Shown: piece by piece, positions 1-43,226 of the stretch
Numbering within the stretch: position 1 is the first letter of the stretch
Layout of the letters: every line of letters begins with the position of its first letter
Virus record (IMG/VR): IMGVR_UViG_2675903417_000003
Length of the DNA stretch: 46,078 nt
Source of the DNA: a virus
Taxonomy: Duplodnaviria; Heunggongvirae; Uroviricota; Caudoviricetes
Reading direction: 5' to 3' (one strand)
Position numbers and translations under genes: made by a program
The notes under the pieces: model-generated
Told to the model about the DNA's origin: nothing
The model's input: only the letters and a program-made list of their open reading frames with translations
The model's database searches: none

Positions 1-1605
<1,605 letters not shown>

Positions 1606-2248: not shown

Positions 2249-2301
2249 GGGCGGCAGAGCAGTCACGGAGTAAAACTGATACCGCCAAACGTCACCAGAA
2301 A
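2249..2301 (-). ncRNA. dicF: DicF small regulatory RNA (ftsZ-targeting)
   Basis: Reverse complement of 2249-2301 reads TTTCTGGTGACGTTTGGCGGTATCAGTTTTACTCCGTGACTGCTCUGCCGCCC, matching the recalled 53-nt DicF including its 3' terminator hairpin, followed by a T-run (2244-2248 on the plus strand). Confidence 0.85.
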
Positions 2302-3343: not shown

Positions 3344-3751
3344 TTATTTTATTGATTTATTTTTACGCGCTTTAAGCATTTCTTCGAAGAGTTTGTTGAA
3401 GTTTTCTACTCTTGCGCGCATTTCAGACAGCAAGGCTTCCTGCTCGGAAGATGGAAGAGCATCGAATAATTCGATCAATTCTTTGTGGTTGGGAGTTAGC
3501 TCTGTTTCCACATGAAGTTCTTGTGCAGGCACTGGTGCCTTGTCTTCGTCACCAAACATTAGCCATGTAGGTGAGCACTTCAGAGCATCCGCTAAAGCAA
3601 ACAATCGTTTTCCGACTGGCTGGGTTTCGTCTCTTTCCCATTGTGAAATTGTGACGTGAGCAACTCCAGCGAGGCGCGCAGCTTCTCGTTGTGTTAAGCG
3701 TAATTCTTTTCGTCGCGCCAGAACTCGCTGGCCTAGGGTTCTTGTATCCAT
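3344..3751 (-). CDS. dicA: DicA-like HTH (XRE/cI-type) repressor
   Basis: 135 aa; HTH LRLTQREAARLAGVAHVTISQWERDE and C-terminus close to recalled DicA; divergent from dicC. Confidence 0.9.
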   Translation of the reverse strand: MDTRTLGQRVLARRKELRLTQREAARLAGVAHVTISQWERDETQPVGKRLFALADALKCSPTWLMFGDEDKAPVPAQELHVETELTPNHKELIELFDALPSSEQEALLSEMRARVENFNKLFEEMLKARKNKSIK

Positions 3752-3774
3752 AGTTAGGTAATTCTAATTTTTCT

Positions 3775-3818
3775 TGACTTAGGTATCCCGCGCACAATAA
3801 TGTTAGAAAAGTCTAACA
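3775..3818 (+). promoter_or_regulatory. dicC promoter (-35 TTGACT 3775-3780, -10 ATAATG 3797-3802) overlapping the operator palindrome TGTTAGA-AAAG-TCTAACA (3801-3818)
   Basis: Sigma-70-like hexamers with 16-bp spacer; perfect 18-bp palindrome across the -10/+1 region in the dicA-dicC intergenic space. Confidence 0.5.
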
Positions 3819-3831
3819 AGAGGGGGCTTTG

Positions 3832-4059
3832 ATGCTTAAAGTTGACGCAATTACTTTTTTTGGCAGCAAAACAAAGCTTGCCAATGCCGCAGGGGTGAGA
3901 CTGGCAAGTGTTGCTGCTTGGGGGATACTGGTTCCTGAAGGTCGCGCGATGCGTCTACAGGAGGCATCTGGCGGGGAGCTTCAGTATGATCCCAAAGTTT
4001 ATGATGAATATCGTAAGACGAAGCGGGCGGGGCGGTTGAACAATGAAAATCACTCCTGA
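3832..4059 (+). CDS. dicC: DicC (Cro-like) regulator
   Basis: 75 aa MLKVDAITFFGSKTKLANAAGVRLASVAAWG...; AGGGGG Shine-Dalgarno at 3821-3826. Confidence 0.85.
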   Translation: MLKVDAITFFGSKTKLANAAGVRLASVAAWGILVPEGRAMRLQEASGGELQYDPKVYDEYRKTKRAGRLNNENHS

Positions 4060-4564
4060 ACAGGCTCGTGAGGCTCTGGATGCCTGGATATGTCGACCAG
4101 GAATGACACAGGAGCAGGCGACGATATTAATCACTGAAGCATTCTGGGCTTTGAAAGAGCGCCCGAACATCGATGTTCAGCGTGTCACATATGAAGGTGG
4201 CGCGATTGATCAGCGAGCGCTTGGCGTTAATCGAGTGAAGATATTTGAACGCTGGAAGGCTATCGACACCAGGGATAAGCGTGAAAAGTTCACGGCGCTA
4301 GTGCCTGCAATTATGGAGGCTATCCGGATTAATGATTTCAGGTTGTATCGTGAAATTACTGACGGAAAAAGCATCACGTGCATGATCGCCGGGTTAAACA
4401 AAGAATATGGCGATGTGGTGGAGTCCGGACTGCTTTTTGCTGATCCTGCCGTAGTGGATCGTGAAACTGACGAACTTATAGAAAAAGCAATTGCTTTCAA
4501 ACTTGCGTATCGACAGCAATACCAACAAAAAGCTGGATGGAATTATGAGCCTTCTTTTTGCTGA
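4043..4564 (+). CDS. Phage early regulatory protein (CII-like/YdfX-like)
   Basis: 173-aa ORF directly after the cro-like gene and overlapping both neighbours; family assignment is positional. Confidence 0.5.
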   Translation: MKITPEQAREALDAWICRPGMTQEQATILITEAFWALKERPNIDVQRVTYEGGAIDQRALGVNRVKIFERWKAIDTRDKREKFTALVPAIMEAIRINDFRLYREITDGKSITCMIAGLNKEYGDVVESGLLFADPAVVDRETDELIEKAIAFKLAYRQQYQQKAGWNYEPSFC

Positions 4565-5510
4565 ACGCCCACTGGTTATAAACACGCAGCTGGCAATGAA
4601 AATTGGCTTAAACGAAGCCATTGTTTTGCAACAACTGCACTACTGGTTGAGAGATACCAACTCCGGCATGGAATGTGATGGTGTTCGCTGGATTTATAAC
4701 ACAACGGAACAATGGCTGGAACAGTTCCCATTCTGGTCAGAGTCAACGTTAAAGCGCGCGTTTGCAAGTCTGAAAACGCTGGGGCTTTTGCGTTGTGAAA
4801 AGCTCAATAAATCAAAGCGCGATATGACCAATTTCTACACGATCAACTATGGGAGCGAGCTTTTAGATGGTGGCAAATTGAGCGAATCCATCGGTTCAAA
4901 ATGCGCCGCTCCATCAGGTCAAAATGACACGATGGAAGAGGTCAAAATGAAACGCTCCATTGGTTCAAAACGACCCAATGTCATCGGGTCAAAATGGCCT
5001 GATGATCTTACAGAGAATACAACAGAGATTACTACAGAGAATAAAAACACTTTTCGTCCGGAAGCTTCGCAACCGGACCCGCAGACGACTGAACAGGATT
5101 TTTTAACCCGGAACTCCGACGCGGTTGTGTTTAGTGCGAAAAAACGCCAGTGGGGTAGCAGGGAGGATTTGGCGTGTGCGCAGTGGATCTGGGGGCGGAT
5201 CGTGGGTCTCTACGAACAGGCAGCCAGTGATGATGGCGAGATCATGCGACCAAAAGAGCCTAACTGGACTGCCTGGGCCAATGACGTGCGCACAATGCGG
5301 ATGCTGGATGGCAGAAGCCACAGACAAATTTGCGAAATGTTTGGTCGGGTTCAGCGAGATCCATTCTGGGTAAAAAACATCATGAGCCCGTCAAAGCTCC
5401 GCGAAAAATGGGACGAACTGGTCATCCGCCTGGGACGTTCACCTGTACAGCGTTGTGTTAATCATATTTCTGAACCGGATACAGAAATTCCGCCTGGTTT
5501 CAGAGGATAA
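4545..5510 (+). CDS. Putative replication initiation protein (lambda O-like role), with iterons inside the gene
   Basis: 322 aa from ATG 4545 (GGATGG upstream); N-terminal winged-helix-like region; repeated SIGSK peptide motif encoded by the iterons at 4887-4997. Confidence 0.65.
   Translation: MSLLFAERPLVINTQLAMKIGLNEAIVLQQLHYWLRDTNSGMECDGVRWIYNTTEQWLEQFPFWSESTLKRAFASLKTLGLLRCEKLNKSKRDMTNFYTINYGSELLDGGKLSESIGSKCAAPSGQNDTMEEVKMKRSIGSKRPNVIGSKWPDDLTENTTEITTENKNTFRPEASQPDPQTTEQDFLTRNSDAVVFSAKKRQWGSREDLACAQWIWGRIVGLYEQAASDDGEIMRPKEPNWTAWANDVRTMRMLDGRSHRQICEMFGRVQRDPFWVKNIMSPSKLREKWDELVIRLGRSPVQRCVNHISEPDTEIPPGFRG
4887..4997. repeat. Five iterons (GGT(T)CAAAATG core, 22-25 bp spacing) followed by an AT-rich stretch: candidate prophage replication origin
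   Basis: Cores at 4893, 4917, 4940, 4962 and 4987; AT-rich region 5000-5050. Confidence 0.6.
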
Positions 5511-5550
5511 GTGTTGATTTCAGGTCATGAGGTAATTTTAAGGGGGACTT

Positions 5551-5973
5551 GTGGCAAAAGTTTTTACACAAGAAGAGCGGGAAAAAATTAAATGGCAGGT
5601 GGTGGAACTCGTGCGCCAGAGCGGCCGTGAGACGTTACGGCAACTGGAAGCTAAAACAGGTGCGACTAGATATCTGATGAGCGTTCTTGCCAGAGAGCTG
5701 GTAGCCAGTGGCGATGTATACAACTCCGGCTACGGGTTATTCCCCTCTGAACAGGCGCGTAAGGACTGGCAAAACGCCCGCAAAAAACTCTCGAGGGCAA
5801 AGGTGAAGAAACCTGCTGTGGTTGATCCGGACCTTATCTGGTCATCACCTGACGGAGAAATACGTCGCTACGACAGTCGCCTAAACATAATCTGTCGCGA
5901 GTGCCGGAAGAGCGAAGTTATGCAGCGCATACTGGCTTTCTATCAGGGTAATTTTCAGGACGTGGCGCAGTGA
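5551..5973 (+). CDS. Hypothetical protein (possible winged-helix), translationally coupled to the downstream methyltransferase
   Basis: 140-aa ORF with GTG start and AAGGGGGA Shine-Dalgarno; GTGA overlap with the next gene. Confidence 0.55.
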   Translation: MAKVFTQEEREKIKWQVVELVRQSGRETLRQLEAKTGATRYLMSVLARELVASGDVYNSGYGLFPSEQARKDWQNARKKLSRAKVKKPAVVDPDLIWSSPDGEIRRYDSRLNIICRECRKSEVMQRILAFYQGNFQDVAQ

Positions 5974-6326
5974 GTGCACCGGCAACCATTCTTGATATGT
6001 GCTGTGGCAGCCGCATGTTCTGGTTCGATAAGTCTGACGAACGGGCGATATTCAGCGATATCAGAAAAGAAGGATACACATTACGCAATGGGAGACGCTT
6101 GATTATCAGCCCTGACATTATCGCAGATTTTCGTGCATTATCATTTGCAGACGCATCTTTTTCGATGGTTGTATTAGACCCTCCGCATCTTGAGAGTGTT
6201 GGTGATAACGCCTGGATGGGAAAGAAATATGGACGGCTGAATAAAGATGCCTGGCGTGATGATTCGCGACAGAGATTTAAAGAAGCCTTTCGGGTGTTGA
6301 GGCCGCACGGCGTTCTGATTTTTTAA
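5970..6326 (+). CDS. SAM-dependent methyltransferase (N6-adenine/N4-cytosine type), probably truncated by a premature TAA
   Basis: Motif I-like DMCCGSRMF and motif IV VVLDPPHL; only 118 aa; the frame stays open for 29 more codons after the TAA at 6324-6326. Confidence 0.55.
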   Translation: MSAPATILDMCCGSRMFWFDKSDERAIFSDIRKEGYTLRNGRRLIISPDIIADFRALSFADASFSMVVLDPPHLESVGDNAWMGKKYGRLNKDAWRDDSRQRFKEAFRVLRPHGVLIF

Positions 6327-6588
6327 TGGAATGAAACGCAAATACCGGTAAGCCAGATTCTGGCACTGACAGACAGAAAACCTGTTATCTGTCAACGAAC
6401 AGGGAAAAAACGATAAAACCCACTGGATTATTTTTATGAAAGAGGCATCCAGTGAGTAGATTCGTAAGGCTACAGATACGTATATCTGAATAATTAAATT
6501 CAGTTCTGTAAATAAAATTTAATCCTTAACCGGATGGATTTCTGCACCCTCAGAACATCAGGAGGCCGCCCGAAAGGGCGGTAGTGAA

Positions 6589-7658: not shown

Positions 7659-7929
7659 ATACAGCGAACTCCATTGGTTTAGTTGGATATTTACTGTGCT
7701 GGACAAAAACGGTTTGCGGGGAAATCTTAGTTAAGTAGAATGACTGCGGGTGCTTGAGGCTATCTGCCTCGGGCATGGACACCAACGGCAGATAGAGAAA
7801 AGCCCCAGTTAACATTACGCGTCCTGCAAGACGCTTAACATTAATCTGAGGCCAATTTCATGCTAGACACATGTAGGTTAGCCTCTTACGTGCCGAAAGG
7901 CACGGAGAAGCAGGCTATTGTTAACACCA

Positions 7930-9560
7930 AGCTGTAATGTCCCCTTTGAACCATTCTAAAATGTCCCCAGACAATTCTCTGGGGGATTTTTCATGATCAA
8001 AGAGACTGTTACGATGAGTCATAAGGAACTCCACCGACTTCAGATTATTCAGGAACAAGCTGCGGCACGCATTGGCATTTCTATTCGGCAGGTTAAACGT
8101 CTGGTGCAACGGTATAGAAATGAAGGGCCTTCTGGTCTGGTTTCCCACCGACGTGGAAAGCGTCCTAATAGTTCCTTTTCTACTGAATTCAGAGCAACAG
8201 TAATTTCACTCCTCAAAGGCCGTTACGCTGATTTTGGACCTACGTTTGCGTGCGAAAAATTGCGCGAGATACACGGTTTATCTTTATCCGTTGAAACTCT
8301 CAGAAAGTGGATGATAGAAGAGGGGTTATGGCGTGAACGCCGTCGTAAAATTGCCCGTATATATCAACGCCGCATGCGACGACCATCTTACGGTGAACTG
8401 ATCCAGATTGATGGCTCACCTCATGACTGGTTTGAAAATCGAGGCCCCAGATGTACACTGATCGTTTTCATTGATGATGCCACCAGTGCGTTGATGGCGT
8501 TGCGTTTTGTGCCTGCTGAAACAACCCGGGCTTACATGGAAACCCTCCGGGGTTACCTTAATGATCATGGCGTACCGCTCGCTCTCTACTCTGATAGACA
8601 CAGTATATTCAGGGTAAATAACCCAGAGCGGGAAGGTGAGCTGACCCAGTTCACTCGTGCGATAAAGACACTGGGCATCGAGCCAATCCATGCCAACAGC
8701 CCGCAGGCAAAAGGGCGGGTAGAGCGCGCCAATCAGACACTACAGGACAGGCTGGTCAAAGAAATGCGGCTTCAGAATATCAGTGATATTGAAACAGCAA
8801 ATGCATGGTTGCCGACCTTTATTGAAGCCTATAACAACCGGTTCGCTACGTCGCCTCGTACTACTGATAATGCTCATCTTGATGTGCACCATTCTGAAGA
8901 GGAACTGGGTTATATCTTCAGCCTACAGGCGAAGCGCGTTCTGTCTAAAAATCTCACTTTCCAGTACAAAAGCAGTGCGTTTCAGGTACGCAGTGAGGGC
9001 CGGGGATATCGACTTAGGCATTCGGTTGTTACTGTATGCGAGAACTTTGACGGTGAAATTAACGTTCTGTATGACGGGAAAGCGCTGGGCTGGGAAAAGT
9101 ATGTTGATGGCCCGGAGCCTATACCACTGGATGATGAAAAGAGTGTCCATGAACGAGTGGATAATGCCCGTATTGATTTACGCTCAAAATACTATGTTAA
9201 ACCTAAAGCTGACCATCCCTGGCTTACGCGCCGAACGCAAAGTCATCAGCAAGTTAAGCCCCCGAAGTTACCTAAAAAGAAGCCTGATCCCGATAAAAAA
9301 GATTGAAACCAAGATCGATTCGGTTGAGTGCATATCCATTCATAGGGTAGATTCTTAAGTCGCGTTTCTGGTGTTCATTTTCGGGTGGTTTGTTACTTGT
9401 TTTACCGGGGATATGCCAGAAACGCGCTGAGTCAGTCTGGGCGGTGCGCGTAATGAGGCGTTATGGTAAATAGCCTATGCTAATGTCCGCTAAGAGCAAG
9501 AAGCGGAAGTTGGCAGTTTTGTGGACTGTCCCCACAAAAGTGACTACAGAAATAGTTGCA
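7930..9560 (+). mobile_element. Insertion element carrying a DDE transposase (boundaries approximate, terminal repeats not resolved)
   Basis: Single 437-aa rve-type transposase inserted between the replication region and flxA. Confidence 0.4.
7993..9306 (+). CDS. DDE transposase with N-terminal HTH and rve integrase catalytic core
   Basis: 437 aa; HTH ISIRQVKRLVQRYRNEG; catalytic motifs IQIDGSPHDW, LYSDRHSIF and GRVERANQTLQDRL. Confidence 0.8.
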   Translation: MIKETVTMSHKELHRLQIIQEQAAARIGISIRQVKRLVQRYRNEGPSGLVSHRRGKRPNSSFSTEFRATVISLLKGRYADFGPTFACEKLREIHGLSLSVETLRKWMIEEGLWRERRRKIARIYQRRMRRPSYGELIQIDGSPHDWFENRGPRCTLIVFIDDATSALMALRFVPAETTRAYMETLRGYLNDHGVPLALYSDRHSIFRVNNPEREGELTQFTRAIKTLGIEPIHANSPQAKGRVERANQTLQDRLVKEMRLQNISDIETANAWLPTFIEAYNNRFATSPRTTDNAHLDVHHSEEELGYIFSLQAKRVLSKNLTFQYKSSAFQVRSEGRGYRLRHSVVTVCENFDGEINVLYDGKALGWEKYVDGPEPIPLDDEKSVHERVDNARIDLRSKYYVKPKADHPWLTRRTQSHQQVKPPKLPKKKPDPDKKD

Positions 9561-14625: not shown

Positions 14626-14925
14626 AAAAATTCCTTAATACTGATAACTTGGCGCACTATACACACGTTCCTGAAGAAAGCTATAGTTTTTTGATGGGGT
14701 TGAAGATGGCTGGATGTCTAAAATAAACATTGCTTCATATGTTCAACTATGCGTTAATGATTGCGTCGGTTTGAAGAACAGACGATATACGAAGTAGTTT
14801 ACTAAAGCAGTTCTCATTTCAGGTGTTATTCACTTATTCCTTCTTTGAGTCTCTCCAATTAAGTACGAAGTCGTTTCTGTTATGCAAACCATTTATGCCG
14901 AAAGGCTCAAGTTAAGGAATGTAGA

Positions 14926-15141
14926 ATGTCAAATAAAATGACTGGTTTAGTAAAATGGTTTAACGCTGATAAAGGTTTCGGCTTTATTTCTCCTGTTGAT
15001 GGTAGTAAAGATGTGTTTGTGCATTTTTCTGCGATTCAGAATGATAATTATCGAACCTTATTTGAAGGTCAAAAGGTTACCTTCTCTATAGAGAGTGGTG
15101 CTAAAGGTCCTGCAGCAGCAAATGTCATCATTACTGATTAA
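14926..15141 (+). CDS. cspB: Cold-shock protein CspB-like
   Basis: 71 aa [71 protein letters not shown]; long 5' UTR and AAGGAA Shine-Dalgarno. Confidence 0.9.
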
Positions 15142-15423
15142 AATTCATCGCTCGTCTGTATACGATAACGAAGAAGGCTGATGCCTGAGTAGAGATACGG
15201 ACAGAGTAGTGAATATTGGATCTCTTTAATAAAAAGTAAGGAGGTCCAATACATGAAACAATGGCTAGCATATTTGGCAAAATCTTAATCAGGAAAAGTA
15301 TGCTAACCATTGTGGTGAAGTGCAGGTTTGCTGCATGAATAGTTTTACAGCAGAAGCTAACTGCTGGCATGGCAAAACAAAGTGCGTAAGTGGATGACTC
15401 CCACAAAAAGCACCACAATCTCA

Positions 15424-17459: not shown

Positions 17460-17821
17460 GGTAATATTAAATCGGAACATTTACATCGCGGAATGTAAAA
17501 TTTAAATAAAAAGGACTCTTCCATGAGCCAAAATTCCTGAAATCTTAAGGGTAAGATAAAAGGTCTTAATCAGAATGACACGTTTTATTAATAAATAAAG
17601 CTATTCTTTCATTGCTGTGTTTTTCTTTACAAAAGTAATCCTTGCTATGGGTGGTTAATCATGCGTTAATGGTGTTCTGGTTTGTTACAAATTTATCTGA
17701 AGCAGTCATTGTTATAATTTTATTATTTGTACCTCTTGAGATTTCCTTGTTGGTTTTTCTCTCTGATATTTTTTTTCGGACCATTCTGCCCAAGGGCTAA
17801 TTTCTTCAAAAGGTAATAATT

Positions 17822-18034
17822 ATGTCTAACAAAATGACTGGTTTAGTGAAATGGTTTAACCCTGAAAAAGGTTTTGGTTTCATCACGCCGAAAGATGGCA
17901 GCAAAGATGTGTTTGTCCATTTCTCAGCAATTCAGAGCAACGATTTCAAAACATTAACTGAGAATCAGGAAGTTGAATTTGGTATTGAGAACGGACCTAA
18001 AGGTCCTGCCGCTGTTCATGTAGTGGCGCTTTGA
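17822..18034 (+). CDS. cspI: Cold-shock protein CspI-like
   Basis: 70 aa [70 protein letters not shown]; long AT-rich 5' UTR. Confidence 0.9.
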
Positions 18035-18233
18035 GGTAGACAATATTACAAACCATATTCACTTTAGATGCCCGTGTTGTCATGGTTCCCAGTATAGAAC
18101 ATCATCTTTTGATGTTTCTGACATGAATCCTTTCGGGGCAAAATGTATCTTTTGTAAATCAATGATGATTACATTTGATAATATTTCACAATACTTAAAT
18201 GCCAGCCGTCTGTCGTTGGATTTAAAAAAGTGA
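18024..18233 (+). other. Open frame encoding a zinc-ribbon-like peptide with no canonical start codon
   Basis: Frame HFRCPCCHGSQYRTSSFDVSDMNPFGAKCIFCKSMMITFDNISQYLNASRLSLDLKK; ends just before the terminator at 18241. Confidence 0.3.
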
Positions 18234-42651: not shown

Positions 42652-43226
42652 TGGCATTCAGAATGAGTGAACAACCACGGACCATAAAAATTTATAATCT
42701 GCTGGCCGGAACTAATGAATTTATTGGTGAAGGTGATGCATATATTCCGCCTCATACAGGTCTGCCAGCAAACAGTACCGATATTGCACCGCCAGATATT
42801 CCGGCTGGCTTCGTGGCTGTTTTCAACAGTGATGAGTCATCGTGGCATCTCGTTGAAGATCATCGGGGTAAAACGGTTTATGACGTGGCTTCCGGCGACG
42901 CGTTATTTATTTCTGAACTCGGTCCGTTACCGGAAAATGTTACCTGGTTATCGCCGGAAGGGGAGTTTCAGAAGTGGAACGGCACAGCCTGGGTGAAGGA
43001 TACGGAAGCAGAAAAACTGTTCCGGATCCGGGAGGCGGAAGAAACAAAAAACAACCTGATGCAGGTAGCCAGTGAGCATATTGCGCCGCTTCAGGATGCT
43101 GCAGATCTGGAAATTGCAACGGAGGAAGAAATCTCGTTGCTGGAAGCATGGAAAAAGTATCGGGTATTGCTGAACCGTGTTGATACGTCAACTGCACAGG
43201 ATATTGAATGGCCAGCACTGCCGTAG
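42651..43226 (+). CDS. tfa: Tail fiber assembly protein Tfa
   Basis: 191 aa [48 protein letters not shown]... Confidence 0.9.

What the first reader, a model, noticed from the sequence alone, without database searches (positions are those of the whole stretch)
4887..5050. Iteron array plus AT-rich region inside the replication initiator gene
Five copies of a GGT(T)CAAAATG core sit at roughly two-helical-turn spacing inside the coding sequence of the O-like initiator, encoding a repeated SIGSK peptide, and are followed by an AT-rich stretch. This is the lambda ori-in-O architecture, yet no helicase-loader (P-like or DnaC-like) gene follows.
Basis: partly seen in the sequence, partly recalled or inferred. 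Interest (0 to 1): 0.5.

Follow-up and report, generated by a model that had tools for sequence, protein, structure and literature searches.

The report
Lambda-type replication origin inside initiator gene
The repeats are very probably the replication origin of a lambda-like E. coli phage, embedded in its own initiator gene as in phage lambda; the unusual part is that the phage has no helicase-loader gene and its initiator ends in the same short peptide as the host restart protein DnaT.

Summary
Window 4889-5004 holds five abutting 23-bp units (centres 23, 23, 23, 24 bp apart). Their consensus is a 10-3-10 dyad, CATCGGGTCA-AAA-TGACCCGATG. An A-rich stretch follows (5005-5052, 29% GC), built from 12-nt ACAGAGAATACA repeats, then a weak palindrome.

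All of this lies in the part of the initiator gene (4545-5510) that encodes a predicted disordered linker. The units are read in three reading frames, so the repeat is kept at the DNA level. Only 3 of the 5 copies encode xIGSK.

In 74 homologous genes, from Enterobacterales to Firmicutes, 58 show a 22-24 bp period at the same place. The iteron cores differ by clade, while the ACAGAGAnTAC repeats stay frozen at synonymous sites.

The N-terminal domain resembles the winged helix of RepA_N plasmid initiators. The C-terminal domain is homologous to that of lambda O.

The window (Escherichia phage PhiR42_1) has no P, DnaC or DnaB gene, and neither do mEp460 and HannyBb. The initiator ends in PDxxIPxGFRG, the conserved C-terminus of DnaT. 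Across relatives this tail goes with the absence of a loader; a W..W..L tail goes with lambda P.

Verdict: a lambda-type origin of known architecture, in a loader-less variant.

The parts
3774..3801 (+). pR-like promoter upstream of cro. Transcription from here would read through cro, the cII-like gene, the initiator gene and the origin.
   Evidence: Consensus scan: TTGACT-16-AATAAT, 10 of 12 matches. The position relative to cI (3344-3751, minus strand) and cro (3829-4059) comes. A role in activating the origin is inferred by analogy with lambda.
4545..5510 (+). Replication initiator gene, 321 aa. It encodes an N-terminal winged helix, a disordered linker, a lambda-O-like C-terminal domain and a DnaT-like tail.
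   Evidence: phrog_391 'replication initiation O-like', E 1e-91. No Pfam hit. Annotated 'DNA replication protein O' in PV340562.1. AF2 domain layout.
4572..4865 (+). Region coding the N-terminal winged-helix DNA-binding domain (aa 10-107).
4889..4911 (.). Iteron 1, CATCGGTTCAAAATGCGCCGCTC
4912..4934 (.). Iteron 2, CATCAGGTCAAAATGACACGATG. It has the best internal dyad of the five.
   Evidence: (inverted repeat I1)
4935..4957 (.). Iteron 3, GAAGAGGTCAAAATGAAACGCTC
4958..4980 (.). Iteron 4, CATTGGTTCAAAACGACCCAATG
4982..5004 (.). Iteron 5, CATCGGGTCAAAATGGCCTGATG
   Evidence: (inverted repeat I1)
5005..5052 (.). A-rich, low-stability element made of 12-nt repeats (ACAGAGAATACA x 2.8 at 5010-5043). 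It is the presumed unwinding and helicase-entry site.
   Evidence: TRF. 29% GC and stability in the lowest 2-3% of 40-mers. The motif is 12-periodic in 47 of 74 homologous genes. Synonymous sites are frozen: Glu 96 GAG / 0 GAA inside against 287/300 outside; Thr 195 ACA+ACT / 1 ACC+ACG inside against 214/317 outside.
5056..5078 (.). Short inverted repeat GTCCGG-11-CCGGAC. It sits where lambda and close relatives carry a longer palindrome.
   Evidence: Window arms are 6 nt. Relatives L010 and L013 have 11-nt arms. Lambda has 12-nt arms.
5085..5435 (+). Region coding the C-terminal helical domain (aa 181-297), homologous to the lambda O C-terminal domain.
   Evidence: BLASTP against lambda O: 34% identity over 148 aa, E 1e-26. 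AF2 predicts helices with pLDDT 60-75.
5436..5507 (+). Region coding the disordered C-terminal tail (aa 298-321), ending ISEPDTEIPPGFRG. This is the DnaT C-terminal motif.
   Evidence: 14 of 20 residues identical to E. coli K-12 DnaT 160-179. PDB DnaT chains 2ru8, 6aep and 9zbt_D match the tail only. IP-x-GFRG is invariant in 104 DnaT clusters. Nucleotide homology to the P-containing sister module L085 stops exactly at 5435.
5551..5973 (+). DUF977 / LygF ('Ren-like') gene immediately downstream. It is a neighbour, not a loader substitute.
   Evidence: PF06163, E 5e-29. In L085 it follows lambda P, so the two co-occur. It is absent from 19 of 24 tail-bearing loci.

Best explanation
Window 4889-5078 is the vegetative replication origin of this lambdoid phage (Escherichia phage PhiR42_1, mEp460 type). 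It is embedded in the linker-coding part of its own initiator gene.

Proposed mechanism:

1. Dimers of the initiator's N-terminal winged-helix domain bind the five abutting 23-bp dyad-symmetric iterons. The 23-bp spacing is about 2.2 helical turns, so successive dimers are rotated around the helix and the DNA is wrapped, as in the lambda O-some.
2. The stress is relieved in the adjacent A-rich ACAGAGAnTAC 12-mer repeats, which open.
3. Host DnaB is put on the opened DNA without any phage-encoded P, DnaC or DnaB protein. The most likely means is the initiator's C-terminal tail (PDxxIPxGFRG). The tail copies the C-terminus of host DnaT and would dock onto whichever host primosome component DnaT's tail binds. 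DnaB-DnaC is favoured and PriA is the alternative.

What is shown and what is inferred:

- Shown here: the sequence anatomy; DNA-level conservation; family-wide conservation of geometry with clade-specific cores; domain homologies; absence of a loader; and the association between tail and loader.
- Inferred: protein binding to the iterons, unwinding at the A-rich repeats, and the tail's partner.

My confidence is about 0.85 that this is the origin and that the iterons are the initiator's binding sites. It is about 0.45 that the DnaT-like tail is what replaces the loader.
For: (1) The repeat is real and far beyond chance.

(2) It is kept as DNA, not as peptide. The units fall in three codon phases, and they lie in a segment that AF2 predicts to be disordered, aa 109-177 with pLDDT below 50.

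(3) It is conserved across the family.
- In 74 genes that share the N-terminal domain, the strongest period in nt 301-470 is 23 in 44 genes, 24 in 10 and 22 in 4.
- The cores differ by clade: GGTCAnnnTGACC, GGGCAnnnTGCCC, GGACAnnnTGTCC, and others in Pseudomonas, Photobacterium, Acinetobacter, Lactobacillus and Clostridia. The changes are mirrored in both half-sites.
- The only constant neighbour of the array is the N-terminal domain itself.

(4) The layout matches annotated lambda ori: iterons at 20, 24, 23 spacing, then an A-rich tract, then a palindrome, all inside O. The C-terminal domain is homologous to that of lambda O.

(6) The A-rich repeats have frozen synonymous sites, with p = 3.5e-27 and 3e-59.

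(7) There is no loader in the window, in mEp460 or in HannyBb. PMC9836094 sequenced mEp460 and used it as a curated model among lambdoid phages for which lytic and lysogenic growth is stated to be confirmed.

(8) The tail tracks the loader.
- 0 of 24 tail-bearing loci have P, DnaC or DnaB within 1 kb downstream, against 28 of 51 loci without the tail (Fisher p = 1e-6).
- The association holds on two unrelated C-terminal domains. With a lambda-O-type domain, the window has the tail and no P, while L085 has a W..W..L tail and P. With PF09524, L015 and L019 have the tail and no loader, while L013 has a W..W..L tail and P.
- IP-x-GFRG is invariant in DnaT.
Against: - No binding, unwinding or replication data exist for this phage.
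- The loci are phylogenetically related, so the Fisher test overstates independence. I count about two clear independent tail swaps.
- The partner of DnaT's tail is not known. [quoted passage not shown]
- The window retains a lambda-O-like C-terminal domain, which binds P in lambda (from my own knowledge, not tested here). Its role without P is unexplained.
- 16 of 74 homologous genes show no clear 22-24 bp period.
- The palindrome is weak in the window itself, with 6-nt arms.
Confidence: 0.75

Rival explanations
1. The initiator recruits PriA rather than DnaB-DnaC. The DnaT-like tail docks on PriA where DnaT docks, so the phage origin is handed to the host PriA/PriB/DnaT restart primosome, which then loads DnaB. 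This is a rival only for the last step of the mechanism.
For: In the preprimosome structures the DnaT C-terminal domain docks on PriA through a small, conserved, hydrophobic interface (PMC13377028, read). The tail is hydrophobic and conserved. From my own knowledge, other elements such as Mu, phiX174 and ColE1-type plasmids use the PriA primosome.
Against: The text of that paper does not say that residues 160-179 form the PriA interface. The review PMC5778457 describes the last 20 residues of DnaT as a highly flexible tail. If PriA were recruited, DnaT would still be needed, and the initiator's tail would then compete with DnaT for the site.
Confidence: 0.2
2. The module is a degraded lambda-type O-P module that has lost P. 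It would replicate only passively as a prophage, or with P or DnaC-like proteins supplied by other resident prophages.
For: The window carries IS and transposase genes (7993-9306) and a truncated methyltransferase gene downstream of the replication genes. A sister module with P exists. The lambda-O-like C-terminal domain is retained.
Against: - The same P-less module is found in three separately deposited phage genomes (PhiR42_1, HannyBb, mEp460). Two of them have no IS there.
- PMC9836094 sequenced mEp460 and used it as a model among phages with confirmed lytic and lysogenic growth.
- The difference from the P-containing module is a clean swap that begins at the tail (window 5435), not a deletion scar.
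- 24 loci on two C-terminal domain backgrounds share the tail-without-loader state.
Confidence: 0.07
3. The repeats are binding sites for the initiator or another protein, but they serve regulation (autorepression, copy control, incompatibility) rather than initiation. The real origin would lie elsewhere.
For: In plasmids, iterons also act in copy control. The sequence alone cannot separate the two roles.
Against: - The array is always followed by the conserved low-stability A-rich repeats and usually by a palindrome, which is the full lambda ori layout.
- No other iteron copies exist in the window.
- There are no DnaA boxes or other candidate origin near the replication genes.
- In lambda and in pSK41 the homologous position is the mapped origin (PMC5703833).
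Confidence: 0.07
4. The DUF977/LygF protein encoded just downstream is the missing loader or adaptor.
For: It follows the initiator directly (5551-5973). It has a winged-helix-like N-terminal part. Distantly related small proteins follow many tail-bearing initiators.
Against: In L085 DUF977 follows lambda P, so it co-occurs with a loader rather than replacing one. DUF977 is found in only 5 of 24 tail-bearing loci. Some tail-bearing loci have a methyltransferase or a queuine-transferase-like gene at that position instead.
Confidence: 0.05
5. The repeats are a coding-level peptide repeat or a neutral slippage product with no DNA-level function.
For: Three copies do encode xIGSK. Variants exist in which the array has collapsed to one copy, the 290-aa proteins.
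Against: The units are read in three frames. The period of 23 is conserved across phyla while the peptide is not. The half-site changes are symmetric.
Confidence: 0.02

Closest known systems
Phage lambda ori within gene O (the O-some), with the O-P-DnaB loading pathway
   Same: - The origin lies inside the initiator gene, in the segment between the DNA-binding and C-terminal domains.
- It has 4-5 dyad-symmetric iterons at about 23 bp spacing.
- An A-rich tract with strand asymmetry follows, and then a palindrome.
- The C-terminal domain is homologous, E 1e-26.
- The gene order is the same: cI, cro, cII-like, initiator.
   Different: - The N-terminal DNA-binding domain is a different family. 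PF04492 is not matched.
- The iteron sequence differs: CATCGGGTCAAAATGACCCGATG here, ATCCCTCAAAACGAGGGA in lambda.
- The units abut without spacers.
- There is no P gene.
- The C-terminal tail is DnaT-like rather than the W/Y-rich tail of P-associated relatives.
RepA_N plasmid initiators of Gram-positive bacteria (pSK41 Rep, pTZ2162 RepA)
   Same: - The three-part logic is the same as described in PMC5703833: a conserved N-terminal winged helix binds repeats placed centrally in its own gene, the ori-encoded central linker is dispensable as protein, and the C-terminal domain is variable and host-specific.
   Different: - There is no sequence match to Pfam RepA_N.
- This is a phage, not a plasmid.
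- The C-terminal domain is lambda-O-like.
- pSK41 Rep binds DnaG primase through its C-terminal domain, whereas here a DnaT-like tail is the candidate host contact.
E. coli DnaT (primosomal protein i)
   Same: The last 20 residues are 70% identical to the window tail. They share the motif PDxxIPxGFRG at the very C-terminus, with the same single variable position. RAST-type annotation of the mEp460 gene as 'Primosomal protein I' probably stems from this tail; that is my inference.
   Different: Nothing else is shared. There is no match to the DnaT DNA-binding domain: no Pfam hit at all, and profile searches of the C-terminal domains against the PDB find no DnaT. The window protein is an origin-binding initiator, not DnaT.
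Iteron plasmid initiators that recruit host helicase themselves (R6K pi, pSC101 RepA, RK2 TrfA). This comparison rests on my own knowledge.
   Same: A single element-encoded initiator binds iterons next to an AT-rich unwinding element and relies on host DnaB (with or without DnaC), with no loader encoded by the element.
   Different: Those initiators belong to the Rep_3 family and usually also need DnaA boxes and host DnaA. No DnaA box lies near this origin.

Membership tests
Lambda-type phage origin (ori lambda architecture) | The origin lies inside the initiator gene, between the DNA-binding and C-terminal domain coding parts. | tested here: met
   The array and A-rich tract occupy codons 115-170, inside the AF2-disordered linker aa 109-177. 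Lambda iterons occupy the same relative place in O.
Lambda-type phage origin (ori lambda architecture) | Four or more direct repeats with internal dyad symmetry, spaced about two helical turns apart. | tested here: met
   Five units with centres 23, 23, 23, 24 bp apart and a 10-3-10 dyad consensus. Lambda start spacing is 20, 24, 23.
Lambda-type phage origin (ori lambda architecture) | An adjacent AT-rich, strand-asymmetric, easily melted region. | tested here: met
   5005-5052 is 29% GC with 24 A against 10 T. Its stability is in the lowest 2-3% of 40-mers in the window.
Lambda-type phage origin (ori lambda architecture) | A palindrome to the right of the AT-rich region. | tested here: inconclusive
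   The window has only 6-nt arms (5056-5061 and 5073-5078). Relatives have 10-11-nt arms and lambda has 12-nt arms.
Lambda-type phage origin (ori lambda architecture) | The initiator binds the iterons and initiation starts there. | not testable with these tools
   This needs EMSA or footprinting and origin mapping.
Lambda O protein family | N-terminal Phage_rep_O domain (PF04492). | tested here: not met
   Lambda O matches PF04492 at 5.7e-36. The window protein has no Pfam hit, and BLASTP aligns only the C-terminal halves.
Lambda O protein family | C-terminal domain homologous to that of lambda O. | tested here: met
   34% identity over 148 aa, E 1e-26.
Lambda O protein family | A cognate P (helicase loader) gene immediately downstream. 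| tested here: not met
   No P, DnaC or DnaB homologue anywhere in the window, in the record annotation, in mEp460 or in HannyBb.
RepA_N plasmid initiators | RepA_N-type winged-helix N-terminal fold. | tested here: met
   [not shown]
RepA_N plasmid initiators | Sequence membership in Pfam RepA_N (PF06970). | tested here: not met
   No Pfam hit at E below 0.01, and only spurious hits at E below 0.1.
RepA_N plasmid initiators | Origin repeats placed centrally within the rep gene, with a variable, host-specific C-terminal domain. | tested here: met
   Array at nt 345-460 of the gene. Related loci carry at least three unrelated C-terminal domains or tails.
DnaT (primosomal protein i) | DnaT DNA-binding domain (PF17948) and DnaT N-terminal oligomerisation domain. 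| tested here: not met
   PDB and NCBIfam matches cover only the last 20-21 residues. Profile searches with the C-terminal domains find no DnaT.
DnaT (primosomal protein i) | C-terminal motif PDxxIPxGFRG. | tested here: met
   14 of 20 residues identical to K-12 DnaT. The motif is invariant in 104 DnaT clusters.
DnaD-like helicase loader (PHROG label of weaker hits) | DnaD / DnaB_2 domain recognisable by sequence. | tested here: not met
   [not shown]

The most novel reading that the evidence does not exclude
The C-terminal peptide PDxxIPxGFRG is a portable docking peptide for the host helicase-loading machinery. Phage initiators that carry it need no P, DnaC or DnaB of their own. That would identify the flexible, so far function-less C-terminal tail of DnaT as the element that brings DnaB-DnaC (or PriA) to a loading site. 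It would also suggest that the dnaT-dnaC operon is related by descent to a phage initiator-loader pair.

A second, independent part: the ACAGAGAnTAC 12-mer repeats next to the iterons are a sequence-specific unwinding or loading element. They are conserved from Enterobacterales to Firmicutes while the iterons change.
Probability: 0.35. Interest if true: 0.75.

Novelty: new variant of a known kind. Interest (0 to 1): 0.55.

Why it matters
The origin itself is textbook architecture, so on its own it mainly improves the annotation of a common group of E. coli prophages. NCBI names most of these initiators 'hypothetical protein' and Pfam has no model for the N-terminal domain.

Two things go further.

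1. How DnaT and the restart primosome recruit DnaB-DnaC is stated to be unknown in a 2026 structural paper (PMC13377028). Nature seems to have run the swap experiment here. The same initiator body carries either a DnaT-like tail with no loader, or a W..W..L tail with lambda P. That gives a simple, testable handle on the function of the DnaT tail.

2. The family offers many natural pairs of initiator and iteron with symmetric half-site changes, next to an invariant 12-mer element. That is useful for studying origin specificity and melting, and for predicting phage origins from sequence.

Tried and rejected
- Peptide repeat: rejected, because the units are read in three frames.
- Lambda-O type or DnaD type N-terminal domain by sequence: no Pfam or NCBIfam hit. 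Only fold comparison was informative.
- DnaT homology beyond the tail: profile searches of both C-terminal domain types against the PDB gave only noise. The two C-terminal domain types are unrelated by hhalign, probability 0.2%.
- DnaA-dependent origin: no DnaA box within several kb of the array.
- DUF977 as the loader: rejected, because it co-occurs with lambda P in L085 and is absent from most tail-bearing loci.
- Recent capture of the tail from host dnaT: the DNA alignment is only moderately similar, so this is not supported.
- Literature. Searches found nothing relevant for the tail motif, for the ACAGAGA repeats or TENTTE peptide, or for 'initiator-solo', TIGR02220 or PF09524 in a replication context.
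- DnaT papers. Those I read do not assign a partner to residues 160-179.
- Unverified recollection. I recall that Weigel and Seitz (2006) classified lambdoid modules, including initiator-only ones. I could not retrieve that paper, so this is unverified.
- Protein-protein or protein-DNA complex prediction was not possible with the tools.
Full report
IDENTITY OF THE WINDOW

Window 4000-6400 is 100% identical to Escherichia phage PhiR42_1 (PV340562.1). It is 96-97% identical to phages HannyBb and mEp460_ev081.

The neighbourhood is a lambdoid immunity and replication region:
- cI-like repressor, 3344-3751, minus strand
- P22-Cro-like cro, 3829-4059
- YdaT/cII-like gene, 4043-4564
- the initiator, 4545-5510
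- a DUF977/LygF gene, 5551-5973
- a methyltransferase fragment, 5970-6326

A pR-like promoter lies at 3774-3801.

THE OBSERVATION

The repeats are there. The repeat finder reports five copies spaced 23, 23, 23, 24 bp. TRF reports a period-23 array at 4887-4960 and a separate period-12 array at 5010-5043. The core GGTCAAAATG with at most 1 mismatch occurs four times in 4894-4996, while the whole window is expected to hold about four by chance.

The best autocorrelation in any 170-nt stretch of the gene is 0.503, at period 23. In 300 codon shuffles the mean was 0.375, the sd 0.015 and the maximum 0.431, giving z = 8.3.

Put in register by their internal symmetry, the units are 4889-4911, 4912-4934, 4935-4957, 4958-4980 and 4982-5004. 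They abut, with one extra base before the last. The consensus is a 10-3-10 dyad, CATCGGGTCA-AAA-TGACCCGATG.

The following 48 bp (5005-5052) are 29% GC, with 24 A and 10 T on the top strand. They are among the 2-3% least stable 40-mers in the window.

One part of the finding needs correcting. Because 23 is not a multiple of 3, the units fall in codon phases 2, 1, 0, 2, 2. Only copies 1, 4 and 5 give (S/V)IGSK. Copy 2 reads PSGQN and copy 3 reads EVKMK. The repeat is therefore kept as DNA, and the peptide repeat is a side effect.

THE PROTEIN

PHROGs places it in phrog_391, 'replication initiation O-like', at 1e-91. Pfam and NCBIfam have no model for it.

AlphaFold2, run on a 26-sequence alignment, gives:
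- a confident N-terminal domain, aa 10-105, pLDDT 72-89, with the helix-strand order of a winged helix
- a disordered stretch, aa 109-177, pLDDT below 50
- a helical C-terminal domain, aa 183-295, pLDDT 60-75
- a disordered tail

The iterons and the A-rich repeats (codons about 115-170) lie entirely inside the disordered stretch.

The C-terminal domain is homologous to that of lambda O: 34% identity over 148 aa, E 1e-26. The N-terminal halves do not align, and lambda O's PF04492 domain is not matched. The protein is thus a mosaic of a non-lambda DNA-binding domain and a lambda-O-type C-terminal domain.

COMPARISON WITH LAMBDA

The lambda record annotates four iterons inside O with start spacing 20, 24, 23. 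They are followed by ACACAAAAGACACTATTACAAAAGAAAAAAGAAAAG and then by a palindrome with 12-nt arms.

The window has the same three elements in the same order at the same place in the gene. Its palindrome is weak (6-nt arms, 5056-5078), while close relatives have 10-11-nt arms.

COMPARATIVE TEST

I fetched 80 loci encoding relatives of the protein, one genome per species. They range from Escherichia to Pantoea, Pseudomonas, Acinetobacter, Photobacterium, Staphylococcus, Lactobacillaceae and Clostridia.

In 74 full-length genes, the strongest period in nt 301-470 is 23 in 44 genes, 24 in 10 and 22 in 4. The arrays have 3-6 copies and always start just after the N-terminal domain.

The cores differ by clade: GGTCAAAATGACC (Escherichia, Citrobacter, Edwardsiella, Xenorhabdus), GGGCAAnTTGCCC and GGACAAnTTGTCC (Pantoea, Comamonas, Pseudomonas), and others elsewhere. 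Differences between types are mirrored in the two half-sites, as expected for a site read by a dimer.

Neighbouring genes vary, and at least three unrelated C-terminal regions occur. The only constant partner of the array is the N-terminal domain. This is the strongest available evidence, short of biochemistry, that the repeats are its binding sites.

THE A-RICH ELEMENT

It is more than AT-rich. The motif (T/C)TACAGAGA(A/T/C)TAC(A/T)ACAGAGA recurs, 12-periodic, in 47 of 74 genes, including genes from Firmicutes. It always encodes T-E-x-T, so the reading frame cannot separate DNA-level from peptide-level constraint. Codon choice can.

Codon use in 32 non-identical genes:

| Residue | Inside the stretch | Elsewhere in the same genes | p |
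|---|---|---|---|
| Glu | 96 GAG, 0 GAA | 287 GAG, 300 GAA | 3.5e-27 |
| Thr | 195 ACA/ACT, 1 ACC/ACG | 214 ACA/ACT, 317 ACC/ACG | 3e-59 |

So the iterons change with the protein while this element is held constant at the nucleotide level. I infer that it is the unwinding and helicase-entry element. It is possibly read in single-stranded form by a conserved part of the initiator or by a conserved host factor. I could not test this, and I found no description of the motif.

THE MISSING LOADER

HMMs built from lambda P, DnaC/IstB-like and DnaB-like proteins in the related loci (identified by Pfam) find nothing in the window. The annotations of PhiR42_1, HannyBb and mEp460 list none. PMC9836094 sequenced mEp460 and used it as a curated model among lambdoid phages whose lytic and lysogenic growth is stated to be confirmed. 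The module therefore works without a phage-encoded loader.

THE TAIL

The only PDB and NCBIfam matches of the protein are to the last 20 residues of DnaT: query VNHISEPDTEIPPGFRG against DnaT VNTVSEPDSQIPPGFRG. That is 14 of 20 identical to K-12 DnaT 160-179. In 104 DnaT clusters at 71-99% identity, IP-x-GFRG and the preceding PD are invariant, with the same single variable position.

The same tail ends initiators with a quite different C-terminal domain, PF09524. The two domains are unrelated by profile comparison.

Tail against what follows the gene:

| Tail | P, DnaC or DnaB within 1 kb downstream | None |
|---|---|---|
| DnaT-like tail | 0 loci | 24 loci |
| No such tail | 28 loci | 23 loci |

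Fisher p = 1e-6. These loci are not phylogenetically independent. One tail-like locus, L029, has an IstB-like hit 1.9 kb away.

The clearest cases are near-isogenic.
- L085 is 80.6% identical in DNA to the window from cro up to window position 5435. There the homology ends. The protein finishes DWNSADGWEDVL, and lambda P and then DUF977 follow.
- On the PF09524 background, L013 has the tail HWNSPEAWENTL and lambda P, while L015 and L019 have the DnaT-like tail and no loader.
- Lambda O itself ends ...TDWIYGVDL and is followed by a 702-nt gene at the position of P (the deposited product labels in that record are garbled).

The tail, rather than the C-terminal domain, tracks the partner.

DUF977 co-occurs with P and is missing from most tail-bearing loci. 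It is therefore not the substitute.

All tail-bearing loci come from Enterobacterales, apart from two contigs binned into unrelated MAGs that look misassigned.

MECHANISM AND ITS LIMITS

I conclude with about 0.85 confidence that 4889-5078 is the phage origin and that it works like ori lambda. A dimeric winged-helix initiator sits on five iterons, the adjacent A-rich repeats open, and transcription from pR passes through the region.

I hold with about 0.45 confidence that the initiator's DnaT-like tail recruits the host loading machinery. DnaB-DnaC is the simplest partner and PriA is the main alternative.

The literature I could read does not say what the DnaT tail binds.
- The review PMC5778457 calls it a highly flexible 20-residue tail.
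- PMC13377028 says the recruitment of DnaB/DnaC is unknown and points to the DnaT N-terminal domain as a candidate.

The role of the retained lambda-O-like C-terminal domain in the absence of P is unexplained.

NOVELTY

An origin inside an O-like gene is a known kind of system, and the family logic equals that of RepA_N plasmids (PMC5703833). The elements that were new to me, and that I did not find in the searchable literature, are:
- the loader-less variant marked by a DnaT-like tail
- the invariant 12-mer element

Hence 'new variant of a known kind' and moderate interest.

Noticed in passing
window 5436-5507; L086:1479-2018 (K-12 dnaT): The last 20 residues of the initiator match the C-terminus of host DnaT, motif PDxxIPxGFRG. 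The motif is invariant in 104 DnaT clusters. It also ends initiators that have an unrelated PF09524 C-terminal domain. PHROG families 18526, 3729 and 1701 match the tail alone.
   Followed up: yes
window 5010-5043; same position in L002-L081: The 12-nt repeats ACAGAGA(A/T/C)TAC(A/T) are conserved from Enterobacterales to Firmicutes, with frozen synonymous sites, while the neighbouring iterons vary by clade. No description was found in the searchable literature.
   Followed up: partly
proteins P0016-P0021 (alignment A1, columns 116-146): These 290-aa variants of the initiator lack exactly 31 aa (93 bp). That equals a collapse of the five iterons to one by recombination between repeats. Whether such prophages can still replicate is unknown.
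   Followed up: no
proteins P0001, P0002, P0004: These 448-aa products fuse the YdaT/cII-like protein to the initiator, and one is seen on 56 contigs. In the window the two genes overlap by 20 nt in different frames, so these look like frameshift variants or gene-calling artefacts.
   Followed up: no
L085:3972-4697 and window 5435/5436: There is a sharp mosaic boundary. A sister module is 80.6% identical from cro to the codon before the tail, then carries a different tail together with lambda P. Tail and loader appear to move as one cassette.
   Followed up: yes
window 5970-6326: The methyltransferase ORF of 118 aa covers only positions 52-165 of a 229-position PHROG profile. It looks like a truncated gene.
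   Followed up: no
window 7993-9306 and 7748-7919: A 437-aa ORF here is annotated in the record as mobile element protein plus transposase, so an IS sits between the replication genes and Q. Just upstream is a sok antitoxin RNA match (Rfam RF01794, 104 bits).
   Followed up: no
window 2249-2300 (-), 14765-15157 (+), 17676-18061 (+), 42994-43192 (+), 37-123 (+): Rfam gathering-score matches: DicF sRNA, two cspA thermoregulator leaders, IS009, and a group II intron domain at the very start of the window.
   Followed up: no
L003, L005, L050, L051: Near-identical E. coli phage modules sit in contigs binned as Bacillota and Veillonella MAGs. An identical 41,200-bp Staphylococcus-like phage contig appears in both a Nocardioides and a Micromonospora assembly. 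These are probably binning errors or contamination.
   Followed up: no
whole family: The N-terminal domain occurs in more than 12,000 clusters at 50% identity but has no Pfam or NCBIfam model. NCBI names most E. coli members 'hypothetical protein', and RAST calls the mEp460 copy 'Primosomal protein I'.
   Followed up: partly
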